Position numbers and translations under genes: made by a program. Positions 2,436 through 59,112 of a stretch of 64,000 nucleotides of DNA are shown piece after piece. Source of the stretch: Eledone cirrhosa (Eukaryota); NCBI GenBank assembly GCA_964016885.1, contig OZ024747.1:84072001-84136000 (forward strand), in the 5' to 3' direction. The notes beneath the pieces are model-generated. The model had not been told where the DNA came from and made no database searches. It saw nothing but the letters and a program-made list of their open reading frames with translations. Every line of letters begins with the position of its first letter. Position 1 is the first letter of the stretch.

Positions 2436-2579
2436 ACATACATATATATGTGTGTGTGTATGTGTGCGTGTAGGTACGTATATGTGCGCGTTTGTGTGTG
2501 TCTGTCTGTGTGTGTGTGTCTGTGCGTCGGTGTGTGTGCATGTATTTGTACATCACTTGACTGAAAAATGTAAATAATG

Positions 2580-2806
2580 GTTTCTTATATAGGCACAAGG
2601 CTATCAATTTGGGGAGAGGGGAAAGTCGAGTAAATCGACCCCAGTGGGTGACTGGTACTTTATTTTATCGACCACGTAAGAATAAACGGCAAAGTTAACC
2701 TCGGCGGGATTTGAACTCAGATCATAGAGACGTAGCTCTATACTACAAAGCATGGCGTCCGACCTTCTGCCGATGCTGCCAATCCACCGCCCTGTAAATC
2801 CACCGC
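2580..2806 (-). mobile_element. tRNA-derived SINE family A (long form) with 14 bp TSD
   Basis: A box tggcagcatcgg, B box gagttcaaatcc; TSD aaatgtaaataatg at 2566-2579 and 2807-2820. Confidence 0.9.
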
Positions 2807-2875
2807 AAATGTAAATAATGAGATGTCTAACTACTATTTCTAGCATTTAGATCATGAATTATTGTAGTATTAGGA

Positions 2876-3235
2876 CAGTGGATTGGCAGACTCGTTAAAG
2901 GATCGGCTAGTACACTATGCGATATTTGTTCTGGCTCTTTACATTCTGAGTTCAAATCCCACCAAAGTCAGCTTTATTTTTTATCCTTCCAAAGTGGATA
3001 AAATCAAATCCCAGTCTACATTGCCCCTTCCCCAAATTTACTGGCTTTGTGCCTGTGAATTGGCAGTATCGGTAGAGGGTTGGACGCCATGCCTTCTAAC
3101 ATAGTTATGTCCCTTTACGGTCTGAGTTCAAATCCCGTCGAGGTTAACTTTGCCTTTCATTATTACGGGGTCGATAAAATAAAGTACCAATAATGTACTG
3201 GGTAATTGCTGGCCTTGTGCCAAAAGTAGAAACAA
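2876..3235 (+). mobile_element. two head-to-tail SINE A copies (older 2876-3055, younger short form 3058-3235)
   Basis: B box gagttcaaatccc in both; core gcctttcat..ggggtcgataaaataaagtacc; tail ggccttgtgccaaaagtagaaacaattatt. Confidence 0.85.
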
Positions 3236-3972
3236 TTATTTTACTTATATAAACTTAAATCCTGTGTCAAAATATTAAATACGTCCATTTTATAAACTTG
3301 AATAAGTTCTGGAAATATTCATCACAACATGGCAAGGAGATTTCACTAGTAAACATACTGAAAAAATCTAGATTATTTCTGATCCTGTATTCAAGAGTTT
3401 TTTTTTAGCAATAAAATATTAGGTCCGTAAGTATTAAAAGCAAAATTTAGTATTTGGGAGATCAGAATGTCACTTCAAGTAGAACTTCTCCGAATTGAGA
3501 GATCACAGCTCCGATACTATGGACACTGCTGGAATTTCAAATTTGGCGGTCATTCGAGGCGAGAGAGAGATACTTTACGGACATGATTTTTGACAGCGGT
3601 AAGAAATTTGTTTTCTTGTATCAATGTTTAATGGGCTTCCACTGATGATTTATAAGTGCCCACCTAAATATATTCTTACATGAATATATATTAGGCTTCT
3701 ACATAAACTGGAAACATTCTCCCAAACTTGTAGAAAACTTATAATGAAACAATTGTTTGGAAAGAGAGATATACTTTAACTTTAATTATATCTCATAAAA
3801 TAATACAACTGGTTTTTCCACATTATACATATTGTTAGCACCCCAAACACTTAAATTGGGTTTATATTTTAATATAACCTAATGTTTGTTGAGTGAGATG
3901 GTTACCAGTCAGAGTTTAGCTTTAAACTATCTCTGTTATTGTATTAAATATTTATATATATATATATATATA

Positions 3973-4298
3973 CTTCGATTTTGAATTTGTTTTGCAAGAT
4001 TTCTTATCTGAAAATGTGTGTTGAAACAGATATTGTTATATTTTCATATTTGGGAGGGTCATACTGCCAATAAAAATACACGCATCTGTTGATTTTCACT
4101 TCAATTTATTATAAATTCCCGGTTGGTTGGTTCGATAAACGGATGGTTGTTTATATATTGTCCACGCTCTTTCGTCACACATTTTGTGACCTCCTCAGTG
4201 TCTCTCCTATGTTCTTCCCTACACCATCTTGTTTTTATGTGAAGTGAAAACCAACAGGTGGGTGTGTTTTTTTGGCAGCATGACCCTCCCAAAGTATA
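3973..4298 (-). mobile_element. Penelope-like terminal repeat fragment with partial inverted duplication and degenerate hammerhead core
   Basis: Homologous to 54079-54537; inverted arms ~4046-4103 / 4240-4297; minus-strand CTGAGGA-g-gtcaca..tgtgac-GAAA at 4170-4198. Confidence 0.6.
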
Positions 4299-4429
4299 TC
4301 AACAGTTTTCCAAGAGCATCAACAGTTTTCCAAGAGATGGCAATATGAATGGACCTGTTATTTTTCTCTAAAAACATTTTTCTGATTCCGCCCCGCCCGT
4401 CCCTTCAATCTTTCTAATTTCTCATTCTT

Positions 4430-4465
4430 TCTTCTGATGAAGGACTAGTGTCCGAAACGTTAAGA
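4430..4465 (+). ncRNA. minimal type I hammerhead ribozyme motif
   Basis: tctt CTGATGA a ggac tagt gtcc GAAA cg TT aaga: core boxes, stem II ggac/gtcc, palindromic stem III, stem I tctt/aaga. Confidence 0.65.
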
Positions 4466-5794: not shown

Positions 5795-6473
5795 TGGAAC
5801 ACTATGGATAACTTCCAGAAATCCCTCGCTTGGCAGAGCTACCGGGGTACACTGCCGGTTCGAGATAAACTCTACAAGCATGAAAGTGCTGTCAGACGGT
5901 CCTGCCGGAGATGCGCACTGAACAACGCGTCCGTGCATTACTGACTTGTGGTGGGGTTATGTCGAAAAGCTGGCTATCGACTGAGGGTGGCGGTAGCGAA
6001 AGAGGTTGTGTGATGGACGAGGTTGAAAGGACTGAAGACAGACACTTTTCTCTTCGGCCAATCCCCCATCAACTTTTTCAAGTTTCATTTGGAAAGGAAG
6101 GTGAGGGTGTAGAGAGAAGTGCTGCCCCCAACACATTTGCTAAAAGGTGGGTAAATGTGGTGAGAATGGCCCGTGTGAATGGGCCTACTCTGAGCATTCG
6201 TCTGGAAGCTGGTTAATTTGAGAAGGAGCAGGGTGCCCTTCCCGGGTGCCCTCGAAGCGTCAGGTGCTTCAGGATTGGCGGGGTACCTAAGTCGTTCCCG
6301 GGTGGTTCGCTCCGCTTGGGAGAATTTATTTTGTTATATATATATATATATATTTTTTTTTTTGGTAATTGTTTTTGTTAATTTGTTTTTTACTCGATTT
6401 TATTGTAAACCCCACTATCCCTGTCTTTGTATTGCCCCCTATATGTCAGCCCTTGTGGCCAATAAATGAAACA
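5795..6473 (+). mobile_element. Tx1-clade LINE 3' fragment ending in ATTATT
   Basis: MDNFQKSLAWQSYRGTLPVRDKLYKH and RWVNVVRMARVNGPTL match the ORF2 C-terminus at 18234-18815; ends gcccttgtggccaataaatgaaacaattatt. Confidence 0.85.
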
Positions 6474-6523
6474 ATTATTATCATTATTAATGTACTTCTC
6501 AAGATATTATCATTGTTATTATT

Positions 6524-6691
6524 AGGTTTCCCTCCTATTGGGGAATTTTTTTTGTTTGAATTTTTTATTTGTTTTTACACATTTCTATTTTCTTGTTATA
6601 ACCTTTTTACACGGCCAAACCCGTCCTGTACCGTTCTGTGCCGTCTGTAATGTTTTTCTTCATGTTAGCCCTTGTGGCCAATAAAGAAACC
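6524..6691 (+). mobile_element. Tx1 3' UTR fragment in (ATT)n context
   Basis: cctcctattgggga..gcccttgtggccaataaagaaac, flanked by ttattatt on both sides. Confidence 0.75.
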
Positions 6692-6743
6692 ATTATTATT
6701 AATATTATTATTATTATTAACTCAACGAAATTGCGTAATAATG

Positions 6744-6957
6744 GTTTCTTATATAGGCACAAGGCCAGCAATTTTGCGGGAGGGGAAAGTCGATTAAATC
6801 GACCCCAGTGCGTGACTGGTACTTTATTTTATCAACCCCGTAAAGATGATAGGCAAAGTTAACCTCGGCCGGATTTGAACTCAGATCACAAAGGGCCGTA
6901 ACTCTATGCCACAAAGTATGGCGTCCAACCCTCTACCGATACTGCCAATCCACCGCC
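6744..6957 (-). mobile_element. SINE A (long form) with 16 bp TSD
   Basis: TSD aaattgcgtaataatg at 6728-6743 and 6958-6973; A and B boxes present. Confidence 0.9.
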
Positions 6958-11087: not shown

Positions 11088-11610
11088 GGACATTATTTAT
11101 CAGAAAATTAAAAAATACACAAATAAGAAAGTTAGAGCCCGAGAAAGAGGTATCCTAAAAAATATGACGCACCCTGTATATATATATAACTTTCTTACTT
11201 GTGTATTTTTTAATTTTCTGATAAATAATGTCAGACATTAAATGGCAAAACGCATGCACAAATTCTTAATACAATCAGAACGCCTAGGTTTGTAAAAAAT
11301 AGTTCAAAAATTAATCGATAAAAGCCCAGGAAAGTCAAACAGAGACATCGCAAAACCTTAATTTACCAGAATGCACCATCAGAAGAGTTGTCCACGAAGA
11401 CATCCAATACAAGTCGTATGCGATATGGAGAGGCCTAGTTTATGTCTGATGTGACAAAAGAACACCACTTGATCCGTGGAAAAAGGTCTACTGAATAAAA
11501 TAAAACATCAAGAAGTTGGAATGCTTTGGTTCTTTTCTGGTAAAAAAAAACTTTGATCAGGACCAAAAGGTCGAAGGAACAATAGATAGCTATGCAGAGA
11601 CCTAAATGAG
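11088..11610 (+). mobile_element. mariner/maT transposase remnant with an inverted copy of its terminus
   Basis: CTIRRVVHEDIQYKSY..LNKIKH..WFFS..FDQDQKV; 11088-11176 is an inverted terminus ending caccctg-TA and pairs with 11187-11233. Confidence 0.7.
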
Positions 11611-11646
11611 CTTCCAGCGGTCATGTACACACACACACACACACAC

Positions 11647-12342
11647 AGTTGATATGGCCCGCAGAATGTGTTCCTGGATTTTTAGAAATTTCCAGTCGAG
11701 AGATATCCATACTGTTATCCTTCTCTTCTCCACTTTTGCCCGACGCCACCTTGAATACTGTTGTCCACTGTGGTCACCCCACACGAAACAAAGTATCATG
11801 AAAGTTGAAGCACCCCAAAGGTCAATTACAAAAAAGATAGATGGCATGACAGGCCTTGACTATTGGAGTCGATTAGAAAAGCTCAAACTTTATTCTCTTC
11901 AACGTCGCCGTGAGCGCTACATTATCTGTATGATGTGGAAAATATTCCATCAGCTTAGCCCAAATGATGTTGGCATCACCTTTAATGTACACCCAAGGCT
12001 TGGGCCCCGTGCTATCCGCCCACGACAAAAATCCCACTCGCATCACATAACAACAATACGGCACAATTATTTCACCTCAATTGGCCCTGCACTCTTTAAC
12101 ATTACACCAAGACACATCAAAGCAGAGACAGACCCCATCAAGTTCAAGAAGTCTTTGGATAAATTCCTTCAAGAAATCCCGGATAAGCCTCCTACACCCG
12201 GATACGCCTCCGTAAACAATAACTCTCTGCTCGAGTGGACCATGGTGCCCAAACACTGATTTGTAAGACTTCGCCAGGTGGTGGTATTAAGTTAGACATG
12301 GCCTGGGCCAATAGTGGCCGAAACCTATCAAAGTTATCAAAG

Positions 12343-17884: not shown

Positions 17885-17969
<85 letters not shown>
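17885..17969. repeat. (GATA)n between two tandem Tx1 copies
   Basis: Direct. Confidence 0.95.
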
Positions 17970-18233
17970 TGTTTCTTTTATTTGCCACTAGGGCATCAAA
18001 AGTGGGACAAGTACAAAGGGGGGAGTTTACACAAAAAGGCGTCCTCAATAAGGAGGAGGCAATAACAAAATATAAAAATAAAATAAGTTATAACAAAAAA
18101 TAAAATTTATAACAAAATCCTCAATAGAGAGGAGGCGCCTTGGGGGGTCGCACACACCCCCGAAAAAAGTGTGCAACCCTTCTCCTCAGGAGCACAGAGA
18201 AGGGGTGCTCCCTTGGTCTTTCATCTTCCTCAC

Positions 18234-21200
18234 CTATAGTCTGATGTAGAGTGAAGGCCCATTCACACGGGCCATTCTCGCCACTTTCACCCATCTTTCA
18301 TAGAAACGGCTGGGGTGCAGCACCTCTCTCTCCATCCTGATCCTTCTTCCGAAATGATAACGGAAGAAACGGACCAGTTGTTGGTCAGAGAGAAAGGTGC
18401 CTGACCTCAGTCCTTTCAGACGCGTCCACCATACAACCTCTTTCGCCATGGCTATTACGCACAGAAATACCGCCTCTGCTTCATCTTTGAAGGGGGGAGG
18501 CGGCTTGATCATTACAATAGACTCGGTGGTCAACCGGATCGGTCCCACCCTTGACAGCAGTTGTTCGACATAACCCCACAGATCGGCTACGCCCGAGCAG
18601 TGTACCAATGCGTGTGCAACGGTTTCCTCGTCGCACACGCATCTGGGACAGATCTTTTTGGCGGGGTCCCTACCCGGGCGCCCGTGTCTGTAGAGCCTTT
18701 CTCGAACGGGTAAAGCCCCTCGGTAGCACTGCCAGGCCAGGGACTTCTGGAAGTTGTCCATAGGTCCCGGGCTGAATGTCCTACCGAACAGGCTGGCCAG
18801 TTCGTCCTCCTCCATGTATAGGGCTTCTCCGAGGGCGTCGTCGCACCTGCTGCGTACCAGCCCTCTATAGAATGTTGCGGTGGAGTCTCCACTGATAACC
18901 GGATCCGCCTGCCAGAGGGCGGTGAGCGCCTGGGCACACTCAGTGTGCTAGGCACCCAGTTTTCTCGGTCTTTGCTTGACCCAGGATTGCAGCTCGGTGA
19001 GTGAGACGTGTCTGGGAAAGGTTCGTCTCACAAACGAGGCCCACACCGGTTGTCCGGTGAGGAATACGTAGAGGTGCCGTAGCCTTAATGCGTGTTTACG
19101 CATCATTAGCCACGGCATCCCCAGCCCTCCTTTCGAAGGGTGTTGACAGCAGATGGATCTCCTCACCATAGGAGCCCGCCTCTTCCAAAGGAATTGGAAG
19201 AGCGCGCGCTCCATCTTGGTGAGGGTTTCCCTTGGGCAGGGCACTACGGTCAGGCGGTAGTAGATGACGGACGCTATGTAGGTGTTCGCCACCTCCGCCC
19301 GACCTTTCAGGGATAGTTTGCAACTGGCCCACTTCTGGGTCAGTGCAAACACCCTGTTCGTAACCTCCGCCCAGTTTTTTCTCCACCTGGAGGTCCGGTC
19401 CGAACCAGACGCCGAGCAACTTCACCGGGCCCTCCGTCCAGCGTCCGACGACGCCATCGGAGGGCATCGGTCTGCCCCTCCACGTGCCGAGTTGCAAACC
19501 GATCGACTTGTCCCGGTTCAGCTTAGCCCCTGTGAACTTTTCGTACTCCTCCAGTAAGGTGCCGACCGCCTCGATTTCGGAGGCCGTCGACACCATTACT
19601 GTCACGTCATCGGCGTAGGCCGACACCGCTTTCCGCAATCCCGGTTCCAAAGGGATGCCCTGCAACAACTCCAACTTCCGCAGTAGTGGCTCGAGAGTCA
19701 ACACATACAGAAGGGAGGAGAGAGGGCACCCTTGTCGGATGGACCGCGCGATTTTGAACGGCTCCGAGAGGTAGCCGTTCACCTTGACCCTAGAGCAGAT
19801 GCGGCTGCTGTGCATAGCAGTGATCCAGCCCCTGAAAACGGGTCCGAAGCCTGCCGCCGCTAGCACCGCATCCAGGTAACCATGGTCGACCCTATCGAAC
19901 GCCTTAGATTGATCCAAGTTGATCAGAGCCCCACCAAAGCCGGGTTCGTTCCCAACCCTCTCTATGATGTATCGCATGAGGTGGAGGTTGTCATGGATGG
20001 ACCTGGACGGGATAGCGCATGTCTGCGCATCTCCCACCAGGTTGCCCACGACAAGCGCCAACCTCTTTGCTAGCACCTTGGCCAAAATCTGTAACTCTGT
20101 ATTTAGCAGAGTTATGGGCCTGAAGTTACTTATTTCGTCCCCCTTGTTCTCGTCCTTCCTCACTAGCGTGACTACGCCCTTGGTCACAGTACAGGGAATT
20201 CTCCCGTTCTGTTGCCAGTTGCAGTAGACCGCCTCGAGGAGATCGGGGAACAAGTCCGGCATAGCTAGATATAATTCGTAAGGAAGACCATCGAGACCCG
20301 GGGATTTGCGTTTGCCGCATTGGCTCAGCACGTCTTCTATCTCAGCGGCCGAAATCGGCTCCTCGCAGGACTTCGCCTCCCTGTCCGAGAGGCGCGGCAG
20401 GCCGTCGAGGTATGGACCGAAGTTCACGTTCCCAACCGGCTCCCCGCCCCTCCCGAACAGTCGGGCAAAGTGCCTTTGAAAGGCCTCACACATCTGCTTA
20501 GGCTCAAGAATCGCCCGTCCATCCAGGTCTCGCAAAGACCGGATGGTGGATTTAGTTCCACTGTTGGCCTCTGTCACGCGGGCCCAGCTAACAGCTTTGG
20601 TCCCCTCGTTCCCTGGAGCACGTATTTTACTTCGGACAACGCAGCCTTCGTGCTTCGCGTCAAAAAACTGGCTCAAAGCCGTTCTCGACGCTAGCACTCT
20701 GGCCACGTCGCCGCTTCTAATTGCCTCTTCTACTCTATCTATTAGCTCCCTTTCCTTCCTATTCCTATCCGCAGCTAGAACCTTACTAAATTCTATCGAG
20801 ACTACTCTAATCTCTCTCTTTAGAGATACCCACCACCTGCTGTTGACGATCGCTCCAGTCAACCGTTCCTTAACTAACGTACTAATCCGATTCCTGTAGG
20901 CTCTACTTGCCGGCAAGGACAAGTTGAGCTTCCAGTAACCGGGGCCCTGTCTATGAGTTCTGTCAAGGTTGACCATGCAGGTCACTAATTTGTGGTCTGA
21001 ATAGCCAACCATGCGCATTTTTGGACAACTTAAAAAGTCCTTATCCTTAATTCTAACTAAGAACCTATCTAGGTACGACCTAGATGATCCGCTACGATTT
21101 GCCCAAGTCCAGGTTGGCGCAGTCGGAAAATTTAGTCGATATCTATCGGCCAGGTCAAATCGATCGATTAACCCTTTGAGGCTATTACACCCCTCTCTAT

Positions 21201-21672
21201 CGGGGCAGGCCCCTACGTAGTCCCAGCGTGCATCTAGGATACCATTCCAGTCCCCCACTAATAGCAAGGAGCGGGACGTCCCTAGAAAAGTCTCCAGACG
21301 ATGGAAGAAGTCCGGCCGCATTGACCCGAAAGGGCCGTAGGCGGCTACCAACCTAAACGCTCCGCCTTTACCACTGCCAAGGTCCAGAACCACTAGTCGA
21401 CCCTCCGGGTCCAAATGTACCATCTGTGTTGCGAGACCCAGATGTTTTTGCAGCAGAACGACAACTCCACCCCCACCTCCGGGCTGACAGAGAGATGCGT
21501 GCATCTCAAAGTCATCAAAGGTGGGGGCCAGCTGTCGCACGTTGCTGATCCGGGCCTCGCAAATAACCATCACATCTATACGTTGTGACCTGAGGTCATT
21601 TAGAAGCATTGCTTGCTTCCAAGTTGAGCCCAGGCCACGCGCATTTAAACAGCCTACTCTTAGCATAGCCAT
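18234..21672 (-). pseudogene. Tx1 ORF2 (AP endonuclease + reverse transcriptase + C-terminal CCHC) with one frameshift and one nonsense codon
   Basis: CLNARGL, GDWNG, YLDR, SDH; FRPITLLN, LDQSKAFDRV, RQGCPLS, YADD; CPRC-x8-H-x4-C. Extra T in run 19375-19380; TAG at 18948-18950, in frame with 18234-18815. Confidence 0.92.
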
Positions 21673-21696
21673 GTTGGTGGTGAAGAGAAAAGGCAC

Positions 21697-22560
21697 TTAC
21701 CTCTCTGCGTCCCGGGTATCGGGCTGCACAATTTCCATTAGGGTGGGGGATGGGTTGTTGGGTGGGGTGGTGGTTTGTGGAAGTGTGGGGGCATCAGTGT
21801 GTTGTGTGGTTGGGGAGCTTGGAGTTGTGTGGGTGTTTGGGGAGGGGGTGGGATAGTTTTTTAGGAGGACGCGGTTAATGGGCCCGACGCAGGGGGGACC
21901 CACGTCCTCTTTAAAATTGTTTTTTAAAGTTTTATAGGTGTCCTGTGGGGCCTTAATCATTTTGAGGTGGGGGAAATCCCCTGCCTGGGTGAAGTTAGGC
22001 CCTTGTGTTTTTATTAGATTGTTGTTGTACACAATGTTTAACAGTTTTTTGTTTCTTGTATTTATGTATGTGTATGCATGTTTTTGTTTTTGTGTGGTGT
22101 TTTTTGTTTGCTGTTGTTGTGAGCTCTTTTGTGTTGGTGTCAGTGTTATGTTTTGGGGAGGGTTTTTTTTCATTTGTGTGTCTGAGGTGTGTTTTCTTTT
22201 TTTTCTTTTGATTGTGTGGAAGTGCTCCTCCTCGTCTGACGACGAACTAGGGTCATCTTCCGCGTTGGAGGGGAGGGGTATATTTTCGGGTTGTGTTTGC
22301 GGTACGGGTGTTTTGGAAATTGTTTTTGTTTTTTGAGTGGAGGGGATGGGTTGGACATTGTTTTGTTTTGGTTTGAGCTGTGGTGGTTGTTTTTGTAGTG
22401 GTAGTTGTGGTGATTGTGTTGGTTGTGCAGTTGTTGGTGGTGTAGGCAGGATTGGGGTTTTCTTATTAAGTTGGGGACAGACAGCCCTCAGGTGACCTCT
22501 GGTTCCGCAGAGGTAACACGAGGGCCGTCTACCCTCAACGGTAATGTTGATGAAGGTTAG
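21697..22560 (-). CDS. Tx1 ORF1 C-terminal part (gag-like zinc knuckle and P/Q/T-rich tail), 5'-truncated
   Basis: Hand translation is open from 22560: LTFINITVEGRRPSCYLCGTRGHLRAVCPQL (CX2CX4HX4C), in frame with track ORF 21697-22173. Confidence 0.85.
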   Translation of the reverse strand, partial: LTFINITVEGRRPSCYLCGTRGHLRAVCPQLNKKTPILPTPPTTAQPTQSPQLPLQKQPPQLKPKQNNVQPIPSTQKTKTISKTPVPQTQPENIPLPSNAEDDPSSSSDEEEHFHTIKRKKRKHTSDTQMKKNPPQNITLTPTQKSSQQQQTKNTTQKQKHAYTYINTRNKKLLNIVYNNNLIKTQGPNFTQAGDFPHLKMIKAPQDTYKTLKNNFKEDVGPPCVGPINRVLLKNYPTPSPNTHTTPSSPTTQHTDAPTLPQTTTPPNNPSPTLMEIVQPDTRDAER

Positions 22561-22561
22561 A

Positions 22562-39233: not shown

Positions 39234-39860
39234 TGTTTCTTTTATTTGCCACCAGGGCATCAAAAGTGGGACAAGTACAATGGGGGGAGTTTACAAAACA
39301 AGGCGTCCTCAATAAGGAGGAAGCAATAACAATATATAAAAATAAAATAAAATATAACAAAAAATAAAATTTATAACAAAGTCCTCAATAGAGAGGAGGC
39401 GCCTTGGGGGGTCGCACACACCCCCGAAAAAAAGTGTGCAACCCTTCTCCTCAGGAGCACAGAGAAGGGGTGCTCCCTTGGTCTTTCATCTTCCTCACCT
39501 ATAGTCTGATGTAGAGTGAAGGCCCATTCACACGGGCCATTCTCGCCACTTTCACCCATCTTTCATAAAAACGGCTGGGGTGCAGCACCTCTCTCTCCAT
39601 CCTGATCCTTCTTCCGAAATGATATCGGAAGAAACGGACCAGTTGTTGGCCAGAGAGAAAGGTGTCTGACCTCAGTCCTTTCAGACGCGTCCACCATACA
39701 ACCTCTTTCGCCATGGCTATTACGCACAGAAACACCGCCTCTCCTTCGTTTTTGAAGAGGGGAGGCGGCTTGATCGTTACAATAGACTCGGTGGTCAACC
39801 GGATCGGTCCCACCCTTGACAGCAGTTGTTCGACGTAGCCCCACAGATCGGCAATGCCCG
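39234..39860 (-). mobile_element. 5'-truncated Tx1 copy with 12 bp TSD
   Basis: Near-identical to 17970-18595; TSD aagtgatagata at 39222-39233 and 39861-39872. Confidence 0.92.
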
Positions 39861-40637
39861 AAGTGATAGATAGGAAGTGAGAAAGGGTTATAAAGACTGA
39901 AGGATGAAAGGCAAAGTTGGTCTCGGAGAGATTTGAACTCAGAAAGTTCAGAGAACTAAATGAACACCACAAAGTATTATATCCGACATTCTAACGACTC
40001 TGTTAATTCACCGCCTGCAGAGTATTACTTACATGTATTTATTTTGCCGATTCTCAAAGATATGAAGAGTAAAGTCGATATCAGTAGGAATGGAATGTGT
40101 AAACAAGGAACACTTTACATGATATTATAGAGAAATGCAGCTTCGGCTTCTATCATAGATGACATGTCAGTGCTAACAAACATAATGTAGTGGGCCGAAA
40201 AAATTTTATTTATAGATATAACAGCTTTCAGGACTAGAAAAAAGAGAAAAAGGAAAGAAGCCGATCGTCAGATTGAACGAAGGCAACTGTTTTCATTTGT
40301 CTTTCCCTGACTGATACTATCGGATCAAATACAGCAAAACAACCTCTCAGACACTTTAACAGTTCTGCCCATCCATCACTCTACTGGAATGGTACTTTAT
40401 TTATCAACATCGAAAGAAGGAAAGGTAAAATTGATTTCGGTGGGATTTGAACTCGGAGCGTAGATAGCCGAGACAAATGCCTGGGTATTAATTCTGACAG
40501 GTTTTCAAACAGTTTCCACCGACTCAATGTCACTCACAAGGCTTGGGTTATGGTAAAATCATTTAAAGTGTCTTGCTCAAGAACACAACACGCCGCCTAA
40601 AGTTGAACTCCATATCCACGAAAGACCATAACCATGC

Positions 40638-44953: not shown

Positions 44954-45377
44954 GTACATACACACAGATACATATACATACCCAAATACAAGCATGCATA
45001 CAATCATACGCACATCCATATATACATGATGGCTACAACTAAATTTTGAGTAATGCCATCACTTAATACTTAAGCATGAGAATTACGGACATGGCTTTTT
45101 AGTCCCTCTAGGGACTTGCTTATGGCCAATAATCTCATGCATCGCAAATAAATGCCACAGATCAAGCGATGCCTGGTCTACATCATTGGATGCTTTTCGT
45201 CGTTTTATTCTCAGTGTCACGGTTCACTAATTGTCTGTGTTCCCTCTCGGTGAAAATGTATCAATTTCTCACATCATTGAGTTCTTCGTGGCTGCCGCTT
45301 ACAACTCGATAAGCATCTATTATAGTGCAGCTGCAACTTCGGTTATACTCATTATTACTATCATTATTATTATTATT

Positions 45378-45561
45378 GGGGTGGATTGGCAGTATCGGTA
45401 GAGGGTCGGACGCCATGCTTTCCAGCATAGTTACGTCCCTTTACGATCTGAGTTCAAATCCCGCCGAGGTTGACTTTGCCTTTCATCCTTACGGGGTCGA
45501 TAAAATAAAGTACCAGTAATGCACTGGAGTAATTGCTGGCCTTGTGCCTAAAGTAGAAACA
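45378..45561 (+). mobile_element. SINE A (short form) within (ATT)n
   Basis: A and B boxes, core and tail; attattatt on both flanks. Confidence 0.9.
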
Positions 45562-45579
45562 ATTATTATTATTATTGTT

Positions 45580-46300
45580 CTTTGAGTCTCAGTCATTGAT
45601 GTTAGTTAACTGGAAAGTTTGTTGAAATGAATATCAAGCCACTACCTGCAGCCTCAGATATTCAGGACGTATCGGAGGGTTCTTGCTGTTCCCAGCAAGC
45701 ATGCCTTTTGAGGCGTTCCAAAAAGCGTGGCGGGGCCAATTTTCTTTAACCATCCCTGGAAACTTTTTGAGATAGTACTTAGTGCGCCTATGACAATCGG
45801 AACCACTTTGACTTCATGGCAGTTCCAAATCCTTTTTACTTCCCACTTTAAGTCCTGGTATCGGTTAATTTTCTCCCTCTCCTTCTCTTGCACTCTCGTG
45901 TCGAATGGGCAGGCCACATCTACAATCAGGCACGATCTTTTTTCCTTGTCCAAAACCACCAGGTCAGGTCTATTGTGTTCCAGTTTCTTGTCCGTCTGTA
46001 TCCTAAAATCCCACAGCACCTTCACCTGATCGTTTTCTATCACCGACTCTGGCTTATGCTCATACCACTTCTCAGAATGTGGTAAATTGTTTACTTTGCA
46101 TAGGTGCCAGTGGATCACCCTGCCCATCACATCATGTCTCCAGCCCTTATAGTGAGTCTGGGCTAGGTGTTTACACTCGGATACAATGTGAGCCACAGTC
46201 TCCTCTCTCTCTCCACAGATCCTGCACAGTGGGCTAGCCTCTTCCTTGTAAATATGGTGTTTCAACCACTTCGTTTTGAGGGCCTGCTCTTGCGCAGCCA
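45580..46300 (-). mobile_element. R4/Dong-type 3' fragment (CCHC + RLE) in (TAA)n
   Basis: AAQEQAL..CRIC-x8-H-x4-C..RHD..NRPDLV..IVDVACP..KINRY..PIVIGAL; attattattattattgtt at both flanks. Confidence 0.88.
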
Positions 46301-46321
46301 TTATTATTATTATTATTATTG

Positions 46322-46640
46322 TTGAAAGATGGGTGAGAGAAGCAAGAATGGCCCGAGTGAATGGGCCTACTCTGAGTACGTATATGTAAATTAAAGGTGG
46401 AAAACTGGGAGAGGGCACTTTCCTTGGTGGTCAGGGTCACTGTGGCCTTTTACTGGGCTTTCGCCACAAATGTCCCTCCGAAGTCTCCCCCCTATTGGGG
46501 AATTTTTCATTGTTATTTTTTTGTTACATCCTCTGTTTTTGTTTTTTACACGCAGAAATCCCCATTTGTACCGTCCTGTATTGTCCTGCACTGTCCTTAA
46601 TGTCTACTTTATGTAAACCCTTGTGGTTAATAAAGAAATC
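46322..46640 (+). mobile_element. Tx1 3' fragment within (ATT)n
   Basis: ERWVREARMARVNGPTL; ends cccttgtggttaataaagaaatc then (ATT)n. Confidence 0.85.
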
Positions 46641-46647: not shown

Positions 46648-46697
<50 letters not shown>

Positions 46698-46698
<1 letters not shown>

Positions 46699-49600
46699 AG
46701 TTGCATTTATCTTGCTTTATGTTCATACGAGTTATCACCAAGTCACAACCAGTGACCTCAAGAGACAACAAGGTCCGCCATGTTCAAGAAAGAACATACA
46801 TATTCACACATGCATCTTTAGTGTTTAGACTTGTGATGTACTTATATTGACAGAATCTTCCTTAGTATATGGGCAGTTCCCATTAGTACTATCTTTTGTA
46901 TTTCTCCTATACGCGGGTTTCCTGGGATTTGCGATAAGTAATCATTAGACCCCTTAGGTATCATTCCCAGAGCGCCTACAACCACTGGTATTGTTTTAGT
47001 TCTCAATTTCCACATTTTTCCAATTTCTATCTCCAGGTCCTTATACTTGCTCAATTTTTCAAATGTTTTTATAGATACATTCTTGTCTATTGGAACAGAC
47101 ATATCAATTAGCAGGCATACCCTCTTTTGAAAGTCTTTCAATATTATATCAGGTCTGTTTGCATCTATTTTTCGGTCTGTTTGGATGCTAAAGTTCCACA
47201 AGATTGAGATGTGATCTTTTTCAAGTATGGGAGGTGGTTGATGCTCCCACCAATTCTTTTGATGGGGCAGGTCAAAATGCTTACACATTATCCAATGTAT
47301 GTATTGTGCAGCTCTGTCATGCCTGTTTAAGTATTCGGTTGGAGCTATAGGACTGCACATTGAAATTATATGGTCAATGGTCTCTGGTTGTTTTTTGCAT
47401 ACACGGCATAATGGGCTGCACCCATTTTTTATTATGTTGGCTTGGTAATTTTTTGTTGGCAGACACTGATCTTGTGCCGATATAATCAGTCCTTCAGTCT
47501 CCGATTTCAGTCCAGAGGATGCCAACCACTGATGGGTTAAAGTTTTGTCAACATCAGGATTGTTAGCTCGCTCTGGGTATTTTCCATACAGAGGCTTTTC
47601 TTGCCATTTCTTAGCCAGTTTCTGTAGCAGTTCTTTCTTTGCAGTTACTTTTACCTGCTTTCCTTTTTCTGTGTTTTCCATTTCAGCAGTAAATGGGACT
47701 TCTGAAATTTGTAGTCCATTACTGTATCTTTGTGCATCTTTTGTAATGGAATATGATCTTTTGATGCTTTCGTGTTTCAAAACGAGTTTGATCATCCAAT
47801 CATGTGATTCCCTTAGATATGTAGATAATCCAATTGTTGCAGTTTTCAACGCAATGTCTAACTGGATTAACCCACGTCCTCCTTCTTTCCTAGGGAGATA
47901 TATTCTATCTATATCTGCCTTAGGGTGATGCATTCTGTGCATGGTTAAGAATTTTCGAATTTTTGTATCGAGCCTACGGATCTCTGTGCTTGACCAGTTG
48001 ATGACATTGTAACTGTAGGTTACTACTGGTATGGCAAGCGTGTTTATGGCATCGATCCTATTCCTTGCATTCAATTCCGTTCTTAAGATTGCTCTTACTC
48101 TGCGGTAACATTCCTTCCTTATCCTTTCCCTCATTGTCGAGTGCTTGATTCCGTCTCCTTCACAAGCACCTAGATATTTGTAAGTTTTTTCTTGATCAAG
48201 TTCTCTTATCACGTTCCCCCGATCAAGATTAATGTCTGAACTCTTCAGCAGCTTTCCTCTGGTGAACGTTGCTTTGGCGCATTTATCTAGTCCAAACTCC
48301 ATTTTAATGTCATCACTGAACTGTTTCACAGTGGATAATAGCCCTTGCAATTGTTCATCATTTTTTGCAAATAGTTTCAGGTCATCCATGTAGAACAGGT
48401 GATTAATGGTTTTGTCATAGACTTTATATCCATGTTTTGTTTCATTGAGCATTTTACTTAATGGTATAAGTGCGATGCAGAATAAAAGCGGCGATAAAGA
48501 GTCACCCTGAAAAATTCCACAATTAATATTAACTTCTCCAGCTTCCAGTGATTGTGTTTCACTATTCAAAAGGAGTGTCGTTTTCCATGTCTTCATACTG
48601 AATGACAAAAATCTCCTGACAACGGGGGATATTTTGAAAATCTCTAAACATTTTTCAATCCAACTGTGTGGCAAACTATCGAATGCTTTTTTATAATCTA
48701 TCCAAGCAATCGATAGATTTTTGTGTCTATTATGACAATCTTCCAGTATCATTTTGTTAACCAGAAGCTGAGCCTCGTTTACACCCTTTCTGCTCAATGG
48801 GAAATAGGTCATTTGTTATCAGGTGGTCATATGTGTATTCAGTTAGGACTGATGTTAAAATTTTATACATTGTGGTCAAGCAAGTTATCGGTCTGTAATT
48901 TTGGGGATTGTTTGTCTCATCATTCTTCGGAAGCAGGAATGTAATGCCGTTAACTAGCCATGAAGGTATCTTTTCTGGCTCCTTAACTATTTCATTGTAA
49001 AGTTGGGCTAACAGCTCATGAGACACTGTGAAGGCATTTATCCAAAAGTTTTGTATTTTGTCTTTTCCTGGGGATTTCCATTTGCTGGTTTTTCTTAGAG
49101 CCAAGCGCAACTGTTCAACTGTTATATTTTCCCATGTTTGTTCCTCAAGGTGAGCTGTATCTTTCATTTGTCTGTCTATCCATGGGGCATGTATGTTATG
49201 AACTTTTTCTTCGGCCCAGATCTTTTCCCAGAATTCTTGCACTTCCTCCTTGGGTGGTATTGATTTAGCAGTTATTGTTGACTTACCAATTTTTCTGTAG
49301 AAGTTTCTTTGGTTGTTTTTGAACATATTATTGTCCTTATAGAATCTAGATCGTTTTTCAAAGCGCCTTATACGAGCAGCTTTGGCCGACACTTTTTGCT
49401 TGATTATTTCTATCAGCATGTCTATGTCACATGTTGATTTTATACTGTACTTTTTTTTCAATTTTCTAAGTTTAGTTTGTTTAACATGTTCACCTACTTT
49501 ATAGTTTGTTAAAATTTCTATGTCAGATCGGAGAAGGTTTATTTGGCGATTGATGTTCTCTTGCCAAGTAGATTTCTTGTGGGAATTCCTTTGTTTTTTC

Positions 49601-50660
49601 ATCTTCACTCCACATAAGTGAGTGGTGACTTTAGCCGATGCATAATAGAGATGATTTAAATCAGTAATGTTTAGTTTGTTTGTGATGATAATGTTTTTGA
49701 GAACTATGTTAGTCTTGTGTATTATCTTTTGGTTCTGTTTGGAGTTCTGGATCTTAGGGAGGGTGTCTCGTTGCCCCATGTCAGATTCTTTCATTTTCAT
49801 CCATTCGATCATAATTTTATCCTTCAAGATGGCAAGTTCATTCTCATTCATTTCTTTATCATTTACGATCTCATTATTTTCATTTGGAGTTTCATCTTGA
49901 GTATGCACTCCCTCCACTTTTTCGATCCTTTCTTTAATTTGTTCTGTTGCCAGTGATTCCGCCCCAACCCTGGGATTCGAAGTGTTACAGTTTACCTCGT
50001 TTTCACTGACACTTGTTTCATTTTCCCTTCGCTGACTTTGTGCTAATAGCTTGATCTGATCAATTTCTATATCAGTTAGTAACTTTTTTTTACAATATTT
50101 CTTCGTATATTGGCTAGTTTGTTACTGTCAATATAGCCTCTGTTTTCGGGATGTTTCTTTTTCCAGTTGATATATGTATGTTCTGTATTCGATGTATTTG
50201 ATGGGTAGTACATGGCAGTGTAGAAAGCCTCAAGGACTTCTTTATTATCTTCCCTTGACCATTTTTCTCTCTTTTTCTTTGGATTTCTTGGTGGTGAGCA
50301 TGGAGGGCCAACAGTAGGAGTATTCCGGTTATGGGAGGTCTCCAGCTCCGAAGTGATGGGAAGGTTTGAACCATTAGCTGATTTTTCGACCCCAGTCTGG
50401 TTCCTCTCTGAGGAACGCGGCCCTTTTTTACCCGGGTGACGGCCGATCCGGTATGAGATTTTATCATTAGACATTTACTTTATTTTGTCGCGTTTTATCC
50501 TTATCCGCCAAGGGGTAATCATTTCGTGTTACCACTTCTAGAACGAGTGTCAACCAAGACTAGAGGGGTCGTTCTCCCCTAGAGACACGGCTATTCCCCG
50601 CCGGCCGCCATCCCGGTATTTCTTGGTCACGGGGTTTTCTTTTTGTTGTTTTTTTAAAAT
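46698..50660 (-). mobile_element. near full-length R4/Dong-clade non-LTR retrotransposon
   Basis: Single-ORF layout with Myb-like N-terminus, RT, CCHC and RLE; 3' end abuts (TAA)n at 46641-46697; 5' boundary approximate. Confidence 0.9.
46842..50474 (-). pseudogene. Dong-like ORF (RT + CCHC + restriction-like endonuclease), two frameshifts
   Basis: Track ORFs 50076-50474, 48757-49917 and 46842-48812; KSPGKD, NYRPITCL, WIDYKKAFDS, GIFQGDSLSP, YMDD, CRVC-x8-H-x4-C, RHD, RPD..ID..K. Confidence 0.9.
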
Positions 50661-51009
50661 TGTTATTATCATGAGTGGTTCCTTAATGTGAGCATTGCGT
50701 GGCTTAAGAATGAAATTATTAATAATTGTCTCCACTCCAGGCACAAGGCCAGCAATCACCCAGTGCATTACAATAATATAATATACTTTTTGTTGTAGTT
50801 GGCTGTTATTGTTGTTGGCTATGTCGGTGGTGGTGCCGGGGCTTTTTATATTGTTGGTGAGGAAGGGGTGAGCCAGCAGTCCCATAGTTGTTGATGTTGA
50901 CGTTTGGCCGTTGGCCAGGTCACTAAGTCAATCTATTTATATCTTTTGCTAGCCTCTCCCTTGTCTAGTGATACCGCCACCTTCCCCTTTCTCTCTCAAG
51001 TTAACAGGG

Positions 51010-51875: not shown

Positions 51876-51949
51876 TCAGGGTCATTGTGGCTTTTTACTG
51901 GGCTGTCCTTAATGTCTACTTTATGTAAACCCTTGTGGTTAATAAAGAA

Positions 51950-51950
<1 letters not shown>
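51876..51950 (+). mobile_element. internally deleted Tx1 3' UTR fragment within (ATT)n
   Basis: Matches 46432-46459 joined to 46591-46639; (ATT)n on both sides. Confidence 0.8.
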
Positions 51951-52005
<55 letters not shown>

Positions 52006-55770: not shown

Positions 55771-56958
55771 TAGCATCTCATTACATCATTAAACGTTATG
55801 CTGAATGTTGCATACAATTACAACAACCACAACCACAACAACAATCGCACCGGCAAGAACGATCTCAACAGCTACAGTGGAAAAAAAACAAAACAAGCAA
55901 GAACGACAAAAACAACAACAACTACATGTTCAACAACATCAAACACCACAATACTGGCCGCATAAGGCAAGAAAGGGTTCTCTTTCGGTCATGACTGGTC
56001 ATTAGGTTTGCTTCTCCAAGGTACAAGCCTGGACAAGGTATTTAGTCGACCAACATCTGTCCAAGCCTGTGAGTCTCGCTTCCGTCTATCATTGATGTTG
56101 TCCAAAAGGAAGGTAAAGTTTAATACAACTTGGCACCAGAGTCGTCGTAACTAAGTGTTTAAGGACACAACACGTCGTCCGGGAGTCCATCTCATGACCT
56201 TACGATTGTGATACCAGTAGCTTAACTTCTAAATTTCACTATGTATCAGTAACATCAATAACAACATCAACAAAAGCTTTCAATGTCCATTCTTCCCAAT
56301 TAACTTTAAATTATTGAGACGGGGAGGAGAGAAAAAAAAGTTATATTAATTGGAAAGAAAACATCTGGAGATAGCTGTAATTCTAAATAGACAGGCACAG
56401 GTGAAGATGTGCGATTATCACTAGAATATTGGCTAGTCTTGACTAGACACACGTCGTTGTTGTTGTTGTTTAGCTCCAGAGCTGCCCTAATCGAGGAAAC
56501 GTATGATTAGAGGCGTTCCAGCTGTAAATACGCTGTCTCCATAATATCAGGGGCTGCCCAAGTAAAGATATACAATTATCAGTCAAATATTGCATAGATT
56601 TGACTACATCCCCGTCGCTGTTTCTGGTGTTGTTTAACTCCAGATCAGCTCGATTCGAGCAAATACATCTTCAAAGGTTTTCCAGCTGTGACTATGCTGT
56701 CTTTTTCTAAATATCAAGATCTCTGTAGTCTATTAGATCCTCCTTTATTTGAGACAGCGACAGGGTATGATTGAGCAAGATTTGTATACAATTTCAAGCA
56801 GATCGACTGACCACGTAAAAGCCTCCCTCGTCGGCTGACAAGACTTTATCTTTTACCTTCATTGGCTCACAATGATGAATATATAAATATTTATATATTT
56901 ACATTGTCTATTTACAATATTTATATAATTAGTTATATATTTTCATTATTTATATAAA

Positions 56959-57146
56959 GAGCGGTGGATTGGCAATATCGGTAGAGGGTTGGACGCCATG
57001 CTTTGCAGCAAAGAGTTACGGCCCTTTATGGTCTGAGTTCAAACTCCGCCGAGGTTAACTTTGCCTTTCATTCTTGCGGGGTCGATAAAATAAAGTACCA
57101 GTAATACACTGGCATAATTGCTGGCCCTGTGCCAAAAGTAGAAACA
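56959..57146 (+). mobile_element. SINE A (short form) with 14 bp TSD
   Basis: TSD attatttatataaa at 56945-56958 and 57147-57160. Confidence 0.9.
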
Positions 57147-57373
57147 ATTATTTATATAAATATTCATATATTTAAAAAATTATATTTAAAATATTCATAT
57201 AAATATTTATAAATTTACAATGTATCATTACAATATTTATCTCATATTTCTAAATTTACAATATATTTATGCTTACAATATATACACTATCGATCACCGA
57301 TTATCATCTGGCAACTTATTTCTGTATATATACATTGTTCCAACCTATATTCGAACAAGAAATCTTTATTTAA

Positions 57374-57581
57374 CCCTTTAGTATATCCGGCCAGAATTCT
57401 CTCATCTCTTTCTGTTCAAACTGGTTGTAACAGGCTGCTCATACTGATGTTAGGGTATTGTTCTTAAAATAAATAATATCAAAATCTCGTAGATTCGATA
57501 TTATGTGAGATACTTATGTGAGATAGAGTGTTTACCTCAAAAATACAATAGTATATATAGAGTAATGTAAATGCTAAAGGG
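57374..57581. mobile_element. piggyBac-type MITE
   Basis: TTAA-ccctttag .. ctaaaggg-TTAT. Confidence 0.6.
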
Positions 57582-57898
57582 TTATAAACGAAAAACAGTA
57601 ATGTACTTATCCATTATGACATTAGCTTATGTTCGTTTGGACGTTGTTTTGTTTTGTTTCAATGAGTTCGTATGTCAATATATAAGTCTCATTTTTTCAA
57701 CCAATTAACAGTTATTAAAGCGTCTGGTTAAATGACTCACGGTATTTGTTCCGGCTCTCTGTGGTGATAGAAAGAAACAATTGACAATATTGTTTCTGGG
57801 TTATTGTCATCGTTAGAACAAAACGATGATGATGGTCATCTCAAAAACATAGCGTAAGGAGGCTGTTTACTTGCAAACGAATCAAATGTTATTATTAT

Positions 57899-58493
57899 CA
57901 GTATCGGCAGAGGGTCGGACGCCATGCTTTGCAGCATAGAGTTACGGCCCTTTACGGTATGGGTTCAAATCCCACCGAGGTTAACTTTGCCTTTCATCCT
58001 TATGGGGTTGATAAAATAAAGCACCAGTAATGCACTGGGATAATTGCTGGCCTTGTGCCAAAAAAGAAACAATTATTATTGGATTGGCAGTATCAGCAGA
58101 GGGTCGGACGCCATGCTTTGACGCAAAGAGTTACGACCCTTTCCATTCTGAATTCAAATCCGGCCGAGGTTAACTTTGCCTTTCATCCTTACGGGGTCGA
58201 TAAAATAAAATACCAGTAATACACTGGCGTTAATTGCTGGCCTTGTATTAAAAGTAGAGGCGATGTATTAAAAGTCGAGGGCGATGGATTGGCAGTATAG
58301 ATAGAGCGCCGGATACCCTGCTTTGCAGCATATAGTTACGGCCCTTTACGTTCTGAGTTCAAATCCCGCCGAGGTTAGCTTTGCCTTTCATTCTTACGGG
58401 GTGGATAAAATAAGCACCAGTAATACACTGGGATCGATTTAATCGAATTTCCCCTCTCCCCAAATTGCTGGCCCTGTGCCTGAAGTAGAAACA
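57899..58493 (+). mobile_element. three head-to-tail SINE A copies
   Basis: 57899-58071, 58081-58258 and 58285-58493; attattatt at the first junction and at the end. Confidence 0.9.
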
Positions 58494-59112
58494 ATTATTA
58501 TTCGGTATAAAACCCACGAATGGATATTTAACATTAATTTCCAATAAACTTTTCATGAATAAAAATAAATCGATATTTGCTGTATTTTTTCCACACCAAT
58601 CTGCAAGCTGTGGTCTTTCCTCCCTCAATATTGACAAGCTATCAAGGGCGGTGCCCCAGCGTGGCCTCAGCCGGATGGCTGGAACAGGTAAAAGAGTAAG
58701 CTGAGGTTTATTCTCTCCCCTTTCCTCCCCCAATATTAAAACCCTGCAGAAGTCATGGCCGCTGTCTTTTCCCTCTGACTAAGCTACAACAATAATAACA
58801 TTACACATTCGTTTGACTAGGCACAAAGCCAATGTGGGTAACTGGCTGATTGTATGATAGTCGATTAAAAGCAATCCAGTTCCTATTTATTTATTTATCT
58901 ATTTGTCATTTTGTTTTATTGTTAATTATTTTATTTGTTTCAGTCATTAGACTGAGGTCATACTGGGGCAGTCTTGAAGGGATTTCGTTGATAGTATTGA
59001 CCCCACGATGATACTTATTTTATAGATCTCTTTTTTGTCGATTCAATAAGTTACCGGAGATAAACAAACAGTAAATATAAACACACACACACTTTCACAC
59101 AAACACACAATC

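What the first reader, a model, noticed from the sequence alone, without database searches (positions are those of the whole stretch)
2566..58500. Candidate sequence-specific SINE with a Tx1-like 3' tail and ATTATT-initiated TSDs
Seen: about 12 copies of a tRNA-headed SINE end ggccttgtgcc(t/a)aaagtagaaaca-attatt. The local Tx1 fragments end gcccttgtggccaataaatgaaaca-attatt (6449-6479; similar at 6668-6697). Five SINE copies have readable TSDs which, in SINE orientation, all start (C)ATTATT: cattatttacattt (2566/2807), cattattacgcaattt (6728/6958), attattttggctttaag (29449/29659), attatttatataaa (56945/57147) and attatttattt (30166/30355). The apparent ATT tail is therefore target sequence. Known: SINEs share 3' ends with their partner LINEs, and Tx1-clade elements are often microsatellite-specific. 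Inference: this SINE is mobilised by the (ATT)n-targeting Tx1 and inherits its site specificity, an uncommon pairing. I cannot tell whether it has been described.
Basis: partly seen in the sequence, partly recalled or inferred. Interest (0 to 1): 0.75.

Follow-up and report, generated by a model that had tools for sequence, protein, structure and literature searches.

The report
SINE borrowing a site-specific LINE's aim
A very abundant short jumping element in an octopus-like genome lands at the motif (C/T)ATTAT and ends in the same small predicted hairpin as the long Tx1-like elements that land there, so it likely borrows their enzymes, though it lacks their strong preference for long ATT repeats.

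Summary
Observation confirmed. All five TSDs are exact at the stated coordinates. In 990 kb of unselected genome, 84 of 117 SINE 3' ends are followed by ATTAT and 45 of 117 have a TSD (mismatched pairs: mean 3). The motif is in the 5' copy too, so it is target DNA. The SINE has roughly 350,000 copies (extrapolated). Its last ~27 nt share a predicted CUUGU-loop hairpin and GAAA end with this genome's Tx1-like LINEs. ATT-targeting families use the same junction and strand, and have intact copies. CR1, Dong/R4 and RTE ends fit worse. Three corrections. (1) The tail matches TATC-targeting families as well or better, so only the target points to the ATT families. (2) The SINE shares the core (C/T)|ATTAT but not the microsatellite preference: (ATT)3 follows 63 of 82 LINE ends but 9 of 117 SINE ends. 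(3) Tx1-clade membership is consistent with the tree but not shown. The precedent is SINEU/Tx1-Mar, which shares a target but no tail. This scan noted the same pairing before, elsewhere in this genome. Trans-mobilisation is inferred, not tested.

The parts
2580..2806 (-). SINE, subfamily B (long form), TSD at 2566-2579 and 2807-2820
3055..3234 (+). SINE, subfamily A, followed by ATTATT
5801..6473 (+). 3' fragment of a Tx1-like LINE, ATT-targeting family 1 (ORF2 end, 3' UTR, hairpin at about 6448-6460), followed by ATTATT
6526..6692 (+). 3' UTR piece of a further ATT-targeting Tx1-like family (called ATT3), hairpin tail, followed by (ATT)n
6744..6957 (-). SINE, subfamily B, TSD at 6728-6743 and 6958-6973; sits in the ATT/AAT array behind the LINE tail, opposite strand
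11606..12330 (+). 3' fragment of a CR1-type LINE (class label recalled); tested as rival partner
17969..22561 (-). 5'-truncated Tx1-like LINE of the (TATC)n-targeting family, 99% identical to an intact copy; same hairpin tail, different target
29466..29658 (-). SINE, subfamily A, TSD at 29449-29465 and 29659-29675
30177..30354 (+). SINE, young subfamily A, TSD at 30166-30176 and 30355-30365
31188..31500 (.). two 5'-truncated subfamily B pieces head to head (inverted pair)
39233..39861 (-). 3' fragment of the (TATC)n-targeting Tx1-like family
45377..45561 (+). SINE, young subfamily A, inside an (ATT)n array; A-box-like and B-box-like motifs in the first 90 nt (consensus recalled)
45570..46300 (-). 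3' fragment of a Dong/R4-type LINE (class label recalled) ending in (TAA)n, opposite strand to SINE and Tx1-like elements
46319..46640 (+). 3' fragment of ATT-targeting Tx1-like family 2 (AACC/GGTT stem), (ATT)n on both sides
46697..50690 (-). near-complete Dong/R4-type LINE (class label recalled) ending in (TAA)n; 5' end approximate; tested as rival partner
50727..50771 (-). strongly 5'-truncated SINE (tail only), followed by ATTATT
51890..51952 (+). tail of ATT-targeting Tx1-like family 2, followed by (ATT)n
56959..57146 (+). SINE, subfamily A, TSD at 56945-56958 and 57147-57160
57899..58493 (+). three SINE copies head to tail (A, A, B); the first two are separated by ATTATTATT

Best explanation
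A ~187-nt (subfamily A) or ~215-nt (subfamily B) SINE inserts at (C/T)|ATTAT with 9-24 bp target-site duplications and ends in the predicted hairpin tail of this genome's Tx1-like LINEs, so it is likely copied in trans by the ORF2 protein of the ATT-targeting families. SHOWN: TSDs start at ATTAT in the 5' copy; the base before is almost always a pyrimidine; ATT-targeting LINEs have the same junction on the same strand; a 3-bp stem, 5-nt CUUGU-type loop, spacer and GAAA end align without gaps; intact LINE copies exist. INFERRED: Pol III transcribes the SINE from its A/B-box-like head; ORF2p recognises the hairpin; the APE endonuclease nicks the bottom strand at 5'-ATAAT/R-3'; target-primed reverse transcription starts at GAAAC(A/C)(A); a second nick 9-24 nt away makes the TSD. 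The LINE's extra preference for long (ATT)n arrays is inferred to act in cis, most likely by pairing of read-through (AUU)n in its own RNA with the primer, which a SINE transcript would mostly lack.
For: TSDs: 45 of 117 versus mean 3.1. TSDs called from positions +6 to +13 alone: 46 of 235 copies (null mean 0.6, maximum 4), 36 of 46 read ATTAT in the 5' copy. In the 10 deviant targets the 3' copy follows the target in 6 and differs only at +1 in 3. Young subfamily (21,036 exact matches of a 41-mer): ATTA after 26 of 26 tails, ATTAT after 21 of 26, exact TSD of 9-20 bp in 16 of 26. Base -1, outside the duplicated and priming region: pyrimidine in 25 of 27 (C 18, background 0.163) and 16 of 16. 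LINE side: ATTAT follows 75 of 82 ATT-family ends, 0 of 33 TATC-family, 0 of 19 CR1 and 0 of 16 Dong ends. A SINE lies directly behind 17 of 82 ATT-family ends versus 1 of 52 TATC/CR1 ends (p 0.0014) and 1.3% of random positions. Truncated LINE copies have TSDs starting ATTAT (L215, L216, L224, L235). Tail: with a weight matrix from 13 Tx1-like tails only, 87 of 1,974,654 windows reach the median SINE score, 67 of them SINE tails. The three inner stem pairs hold in 59 of 60 cells, with a C-G to G-C flip in the SINE and a G-C to A-U change in family ATT2. Full-length ORF2 frames in 44 of 150 listed ATT2 hits (my count). Ages overlap: young SINEs 94-100% identical to their majority in 29 of 30, ATT2 copies 96-99%.
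Against: The shared tail is short (about 27 nt, 19-21 identities). Pairwise p values against the four Tx1-like tails are only 0.006-0.09, and the best match is a TATC-targeting family, not an ATT one. A covariance model from Tx1-like tails alone scores SINE tails poorly: 1 of 11 window tails listed (E 0.022), and a few in 100 kb at E 0.18 or worse. The covariation rests on two or three events, and within Tx1-like tails alone it is not clearly above shuffles (30 of 500). No LINE family with the SINE's exact stem was found (3 genome-wide pattern hits; these loci were not examined). The SINE lacks the microsatellite preference: (ATT)3 follows 9 of 117 and 1 of 26 SINE ends versus 63 of 82 LINE ends (p 8e-25). 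The favoured -1 base differs between samples (C, T 12 of 16). The neighbourhood of SINE and LINE tail follows from a shared target alone. No assay was run.
Confidence: 0.7

Rival explanations
1. Any hairpin-recognising Tx1-like family, including the very young (TATC)n-targeting one, copies the SINE; the ATTAT bias comes from read-through AUUAU in the SINE RNA pairing with loosely chosen nicks, not from an ATT-specific endonuclease.
For: The tail matches TATC families best. That family is very young and has many intact ORF2 frames. RNA-primer pairing is proposed for other LINEs (PMC6007223, sections read). The concordance test cannot tell whether the RNA carried AUUAU.
Against: None of 46 distal-called TSDs starts with TATC. 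A SINE lies behind only 1 of 33 TATC-family ends. The -1 pyrimidine bias lies outside the primer and cannot come from pairing.
Confidence: 0.12
2. An unsampled or extinct L1/Tx1-like family with a plain (C/T)|ATTAT specificity and the SINE's own stem is the real driver.
For: It would explain the missing microsatellite preference and the flipped stem pair. Only about 1 Mb of 3 Gb was read without selection.
Against: In the unselected DNA no other family with a hairpin tail ends at ATTAT with varied downstream sequence. A pattern joining a Tx1-type UTR motif to the SINE stem gave 3 hits genome-wide. The SINE was active recently, so a driver should be visible.
Confidence: 0.09
3. A CR1-type LINE supplied the tail and mobilises the SINE.
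For: Its end resembles the SINE tail by eye and ranks next after the Tx1-like tails (fraction 2.6e-3 versus 5e-5 to 4.6e-4). CR1-Zenon tails are reported for bivalve SINEs (PMC11481361, passages).
Against: p 0.06 and 0.33. It folds differently, carries its own (TATCAAAGT)n tail, and 0 of 25 ends are followed by ATTAT. Only one CR1 family was sampled.
Confidence: 0.05
4. Dong/R4-type LINEs, which target the same (TAA)n repeat, mobilise the SINE.
For: Dong elements target TAA microsatellites (PMC3812793, passage), are recently active in Octopus vulgaris (PMC13282606, Table 1) and share arrays with the SINE here.
Against: They sit on the opposite strand: TAAT follows 9 of 16 ends, ATTAT 0 of 16, and adjacent SINEs are inverted in 3 of 3 cases. 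No tail similarity (p 0.1-1.0).
Confidence: 0.03

Closest known systems
SINEU and Tx1-Mar of crocodilians (Kojima 2015, PMC4494074; passages and part 3 of 5 read)
   Same: A SINE inferred to ride a Tx1 LINE because both prefer the same target; some SINEU families show weak preference; copies often in tandem.
   Different: SINEU has a U1/U2 head and a poly(A) tail, targets a Mariner transposon, and the paper found no LINE sharing the SINEU-1 3' terminus. Here the head is tRNA-like, there is no poly(A), a hairpin tail is shared, and the target is a 6-bp motif.
Stringent SINE/LINE pairs with a 3' stem-loop, notably maize ZmSINE2/3 with LINE1-1_ZM (Ohshima 2012, PMC3472496; part 1 of 3 read)
   Same: L1-group LINE with a conserved 3' hairpin, variable stem, conserved loop, shared with a SINE.
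   Different: That survey found only 3 SINEs with L1-clade tails among 58 pairs; the examples in the part read are from plants and a green alga, with no sequence-specific target described. The shared stretch there is about 50 nt, here about 27 nt.
Microsatellite-specific Tx1 elements Kibi and Koshi (as described in PMC4494074 and PMC3812793, passages; original paper not seen)
   Same: APE-type LINEs inserting into a microsatellite.
   Different: Targets are (TC)n and (TTC)n; here (ATT)n and (TATC)n in sister families 68% identical in ORF2. No SINE partner is named in the passages read.
Octopus SINEs OK, OR1, OR2 (Ohshima and Okada 1994; not seen, OR1 and OR2 known from citations in PMC4758252, PMC5804259, PMC4824008; OK recalled)
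   Same: tRNA-derived, abundant octopus SINEs; OR1 or OR2 is cited as a CORE-SINE. This element may be one of them.
   Different: Identity could not be tested: no sequence was available. The citing passages say nothing on partner or target.

Membership tests
tRNA-derived SINE | Short, non-coding, dispersed, often 5'-truncated with intact 3' end | tested here: met
   187 and about 215 nt; 117 3'-intact copies in 990 kb, 58% full length
tRNA-derived SINE | Variable-length TSDs | tested here: met
   10-24 bp in 45 of 117; 9-20 bp in 16 of 26 young copies
tRNA-derived SINE | tRNA-related head with A and B boxes | tested here: inconclusive
   A-box-like and B-box-like motifs are visible in the consensus (box consensus recalled), but ARAGORN finds no tRNA in the window and Rfam gives no tRNA match
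tRNA-derived SINE | Pol III transcription | not testable with these tools
   needs RNA 5'/3' end mapping
CORE-SINE / octopus OR1, OR2, OK | CORE central domain or identity to the published consensus | not testable with these tools
   No Repbase, Dfam or SINEBase sequences; motif searches in four papers' supplements gave nothing (one file each unsearched). Resemblance is recalled only
L1 group of LINEs (partner) | ORF2 with APE endonuclease, RT and C-terminal zinc motif | tested here: met
   PF03372, PF00078, PF13966; best solved relative human L1 ORF2p, E 1e-47
Tx1 clade (partner) | RT phylogeny groups with known Tx1 elements | tested here: inconclusive
   40-row tree: grouping with vertebrate L1-like rows rejected (p-AU 0.0016); grouping with fish/amphioxus zinc-knuckle-type rows not rejected (p-AU 0.11) but not recovered. 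That BAC82621/BAD04856 are Kojima-Fujiwara Tx1 elements is recalled, not confirmed
Tx1 clade (partner) | ORF1 with CCHC zinc knuckle | tested here: inconclusive
   zf-CCHC below cut-off in the TATC family (E 0.05); no Pfam hit in ATT2, though a CxxCx4Hx4C motif is visible
Tx1 clade (partner) | Target-sequence preference | tested here: met
   ATTAT after 75 of 82 ATT-family ends; (ATT)3 after 19 of 19 intact ATT2 copies with a readable end
Stringent SINE/LINE pair | Shared 3' terminal sequence and structure | tested here: inconclusive
   Strong by weight matrix and stem pairing, weak by pairwise test and covariance model
Stringent SINE/LINE pair | Same insertion signature | tested here: met
   Same strand, same junction, TSDs starting ATTAT; differs in (ATT)n preference
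Stringent SINE/LINE pair | Tail-dependent mobilisation in trans | not testable with these tools
   needs a retrotransposition assay

The most novel reading that the evidence does not exclude
Octopod Tx1-like LINEs are stringent elements that split the job: one conserved 3' hairpin, shared by families with different targets, licenses the RNA; the endonuclease sets a 6-bp core; and pairing of the element's own read-through RNA adds the microsatellite preference in cis. The SINE, with some 350,000 copies, is the natural trans experiment: it shows the bare endonuclease specificity and would be the first SINE with a Tx1-derived tail and among the most abundant sequence-specific SINEs.
Probability: 0.35. 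Interest if true: 0.7.

Novelty: new variant of a known kind. Interest (0 to 1): 0.5.

Why it matters
L1-group LINEs rarely give their tail to a SINE, and I found no SINE with a Tx1-derived tail in the papers searched. If the pairing holds, it shows stringent 3' recognition in a Tx1-like lineage and names the engine behind one of the largest repeat families of this genome. It also makes testable how much of site specificity comes from the endonuclease and how much from RNA-target pairing, because intact sister families share a tail but differ in target. A ~30-nt tail that sends cargo RNA to a chosen motif would interest people building LINE-based insertion tools.

Tried and rejected
The 30 loci were not used for the main rates because the query held ATT flanks; they do enter the 235-copy set. 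A flank-free DNA search returned nothing; an exact pattern was used instead. ARAGORN and Rfam gave no tRNA call. The covariance model detected SINE tails weakly. Three protein searches and the Atlas returned no protein named Tx1. RTE as partner: only one RTE tail was captured cleanly and two, with no similarity; RTE is thinly sampled, and L2 and Penelope ends were not tested directly. Microsatellite targeting by the SINE rejected: 9 of 117 versus 12.5% of all (C/T)ATTAT sites. Literature searches found no description of this pairing; 'Tx1' occurs 0 times in PMC5786205, its supplement, PMC11481361 and PMC3531059. Repbase, Dfam, SINEBase entries and Ohshima and Okada 1994 were not seen and may describe the SINE.
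Full report
Observation. The five TSD pairs are exact at the stated coordinates. The window holds about 13 copies or pieces of the SINE; 10 of 11 recognisable 3' ends are followed by ATTATT. There are two forms: subfamily A (187 nt, ends GAAACA, median 7.5% from consensus) and an older B with a ~35-nt longer body (mostly GAAACC or GAAATC, median 14.5%). The host is taken to be an octopod from recalled resemblance and earlier scan notes; no call of mine tested this.

Genome sample. I fetched 99 stretches of 10 kb at round-number positions and searched them with SINE cores lacking any ATT flank. Of 153 hits, 117 had an intact 3' end and usable flanks; the other 36 were left out. That extrapolates to about 350,000 copies. 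ATTAT follows 84 of 117, ATTATT 60, (ATT)3 only 9. A caller that allowed any start offset found TSDs in 45 of 117, against a mean of 3.1 and maximum of 8 in 20 mismatched pairings; 29 of 45 begin exactly at the ATTAT register. The 5' copy reads ATTAT in 31 of the 42 that could be put in register, where the background rate per position is 0.003-0.004.

Is the tail target DNA? To avoid circularity I called TSDs from positions +6 to +13 only, over all 235 copies held (random, window and search loci). This gave 46 calls (null mean 0.6); 36 read ATTAT in the 5' copy. Of 10 deviant targets the 3' copy follows the target in 6, differs only at +1 in 3 (an A, probably from the element), and is degraded in 1. 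So the DNA behind the element is target. This does not show that the RNA lacked AUUAU, since the primer strand is kept either way. The base before the TSD cannot pair with the RNA. It was a pyrimidine in 25 of 27 independent cases (C 18; background C 0.163). A young subfamily has 21,036 exact matches to a 41-mer. Of its first 30 loci, 3 were missed by my tail pattern and 1 was a duplicate. In the other 26, ATTA follows all, ATTAT 21, (ATT)3 one; 16 have exact TSDs of 9-20 bp, with -1 being T in 12 and C in 4. The consensus is (C/T)|ATTA(T), and the C versus T balance differs between samples.

The LINEs. The fragment at 5801-6473 belongs to a large family ending in a hairpin, AATAAA, GAAATC and ATTATT. 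Two more ATT-targeting families and several TATC-targeting ones exist. Full-length elements are about 5.9 kb with two ORFs; ORF2 has APE, RT and zf-RVT domains and its closest solved relative is human L1 ORF2p. By my count 44 of 150 listed ATT2 hits lie in a full-length open frame, and all 20 fetched had one, so no repair is needed. An RT tree rejects grouping with vertebrate L1-like rows (p-AU 0.0016) and neither recovers nor rejects grouping with fish and amphioxus zinc-knuckle-type rows (p-AU 0.11). I therefore call them Tx1-like. In that tree ATT1 groups with the TATC family rather than with ATT2 (100/98), so the target has changed at least once while the tail was kept.

Shared target. After removing duplicates, ATTAT follows 75 of 82 ATT-family ends, 0 of 33 TATC, 0 of 19 CR1 and 0 of 16 Dong ends. 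A same-strand SINE lies within 70 nt behind 17 of 82 ATT-family ends, 1 of 33 TATC and 0 of 19 CR1 ends, and 1.3% of random positions (p 0.0014). Several 5'-truncated ATT2 copies have TSDs starting ATTAT, some outside any microsatellite. But (ATT)3 follows 63 of 82 LINE ends and only 9 of 117 and 1 of 26 SINE ends; in 5' flanks it is 8 of 19 versus 10 of 117. The SINE shares the nick motif and strand, not the preference for arrays. This is unexplained. Pairing of read-through RNA in cis is my inference; such pairing is discussed for other LINEs in PMC6007223.

Shared tail. SINE and LINE tails align without gaps for families with a 12-nt spacer: 3-bp stem, CUUGU-type loop, A-rich spacer, GAAA, two variable bases. 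The three inner pairs hold in 59 of 60 cells; the SINE has G-C where the LINEs have C-G, and ATT2 has A-U where others have G-C. These are two or three events, and within LINE tails alone covariation is not clearly above shuffles. A weight matrix from 13 LINE tails puts the median SINE tail among the top 87 of 1.97 million windows, 67 of them SINE tails. The matrix was built after the likeness was noticed. Treated alike, family consensus tails rank Tx1-like (5e-5 to 4.6e-4) before CR1 (2.6e-3), Dong and RTE (0.02-0.1). Against this, pairwise p values are modest (0.006-0.09), TATC families match best, a covariance model scores SINE tails weakly, and no LINE with the SINE's exact stem turned up. 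The tail is best read as a generic tail of this lineage; the target picks the ATT families.

Rivals. The CR1-type end looks similar by eye but is not significant (p 0.06, 0.33), folds differently and is followed by ATTAT in 0 of 25. Dong/R4-type elements use the same repeat on the opposite strand and share no tail. A survey of 12-mers preceding ATTAT showed no further hairpin-tailed family, but about 1 Mb cannot exclude a low-copy driver.

Literature. PMC4494074 (passages; part 3 of 5) infers that Tx1-Mar mobilises SINEU from a shared target; SINEU has poly(A) and no LINE sharing the SINEU-1 3' terminus was found. PMC3472496 (part 1 of 3) and PMC3747384 (passages and section 1.4) report only 3 L1-tailed SINEs among 58 pairs. 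PMC13282606 (part 1 of 3; supplement search) lists L1-Tx1, Dong-R4 and mostly unclassified SINEs in Octopus vulgaris, with no partner named in that part. PMC5786205 (abstract and term searches), PMC11481361 and PMC3531059 (term searches) do not contain 'Tx1'. Passages only were seen of PMC4758252, PMC5804259, PMC4824008, PMC8967140, PMC5753468, PMC3812793 and PMC4889948. Nine searches found no account of this pairing, but repeat databases, subscription papers and two supplementary files were not visible. Earlier scan notes report the same pairing elsewhere in this genome and related SINE-homing elements in other genomes; these are not independent evidence.

Verdict. A real, sequence-specific, very abundant SINE, likely mobilised by ATT-targeting Tx1-like LINEs through a short hairpin tail (0.7). 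New variant of a known kind; interest 0.5.

Noticed in passing
window 17969-22561 (-); L206-L209; A very young (TATC)n-targeting Tx1-like family, about 99% identical between copies, with many intact 1153-aa ORF2 frames. It is sister to ATT family 1 in the RT tree, implying a target switch within the lineage.
   Followed up: partly
L189:853-894 and L189:268-309: Hairpin-tailed Tx1-like ends followed by (TACC)n and (TC)n: possibly further target specificities, one copy each.
   Followed up: no
window 45350-50800: A pile-up in ATT/TAA arrays: SINE, two Dong/R4-type elements and a Tx1-like fragment, the Dong elements on the opposite strand. Two unrelated LINE types compete for the same microsatellite.
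   Followed up: partly
window 15901-17883: An inverted repeat (15901-16245 / 16368-16708, 98%) next to a second piece of the TATC family (16766-17883).
   Followed up: no
window 31188-31500: Two truncated SINE pieces head to head forming a near-perfect palindrome.
   Followed up: no
window 57899-58493; L018, L025, L039, L327: Head-to-tail SINE arrays separated by the TSD, as expected if each insertion recreates the target.
   Followed up: partly
window 7239-7509 and 7680-7960: A different repeat in inverted pair (85%), SINE-like with another tail.
   Followed up: no
window 26862-27605, 32339-33776, 34132-34940, 43332-43992: Other restriction-like-endonuclease LINE fragments ending in (CATA)n arrays (class label recalled): a further microsatellite-associated family.
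   Followed up: no
L054, L215 flank: A repeat family with a fixed ATTATTATTACTATA stretch, resembling Penelope-like ends (recalled); not related to the SINE tail.
   Followed up: no
young SINE loci L303-L332: Exact TSD lengths cluster at 11, 16 and 19-20 bp (14 of 16), which may reflect preferred second-strand nick distances.
   Followed up: no
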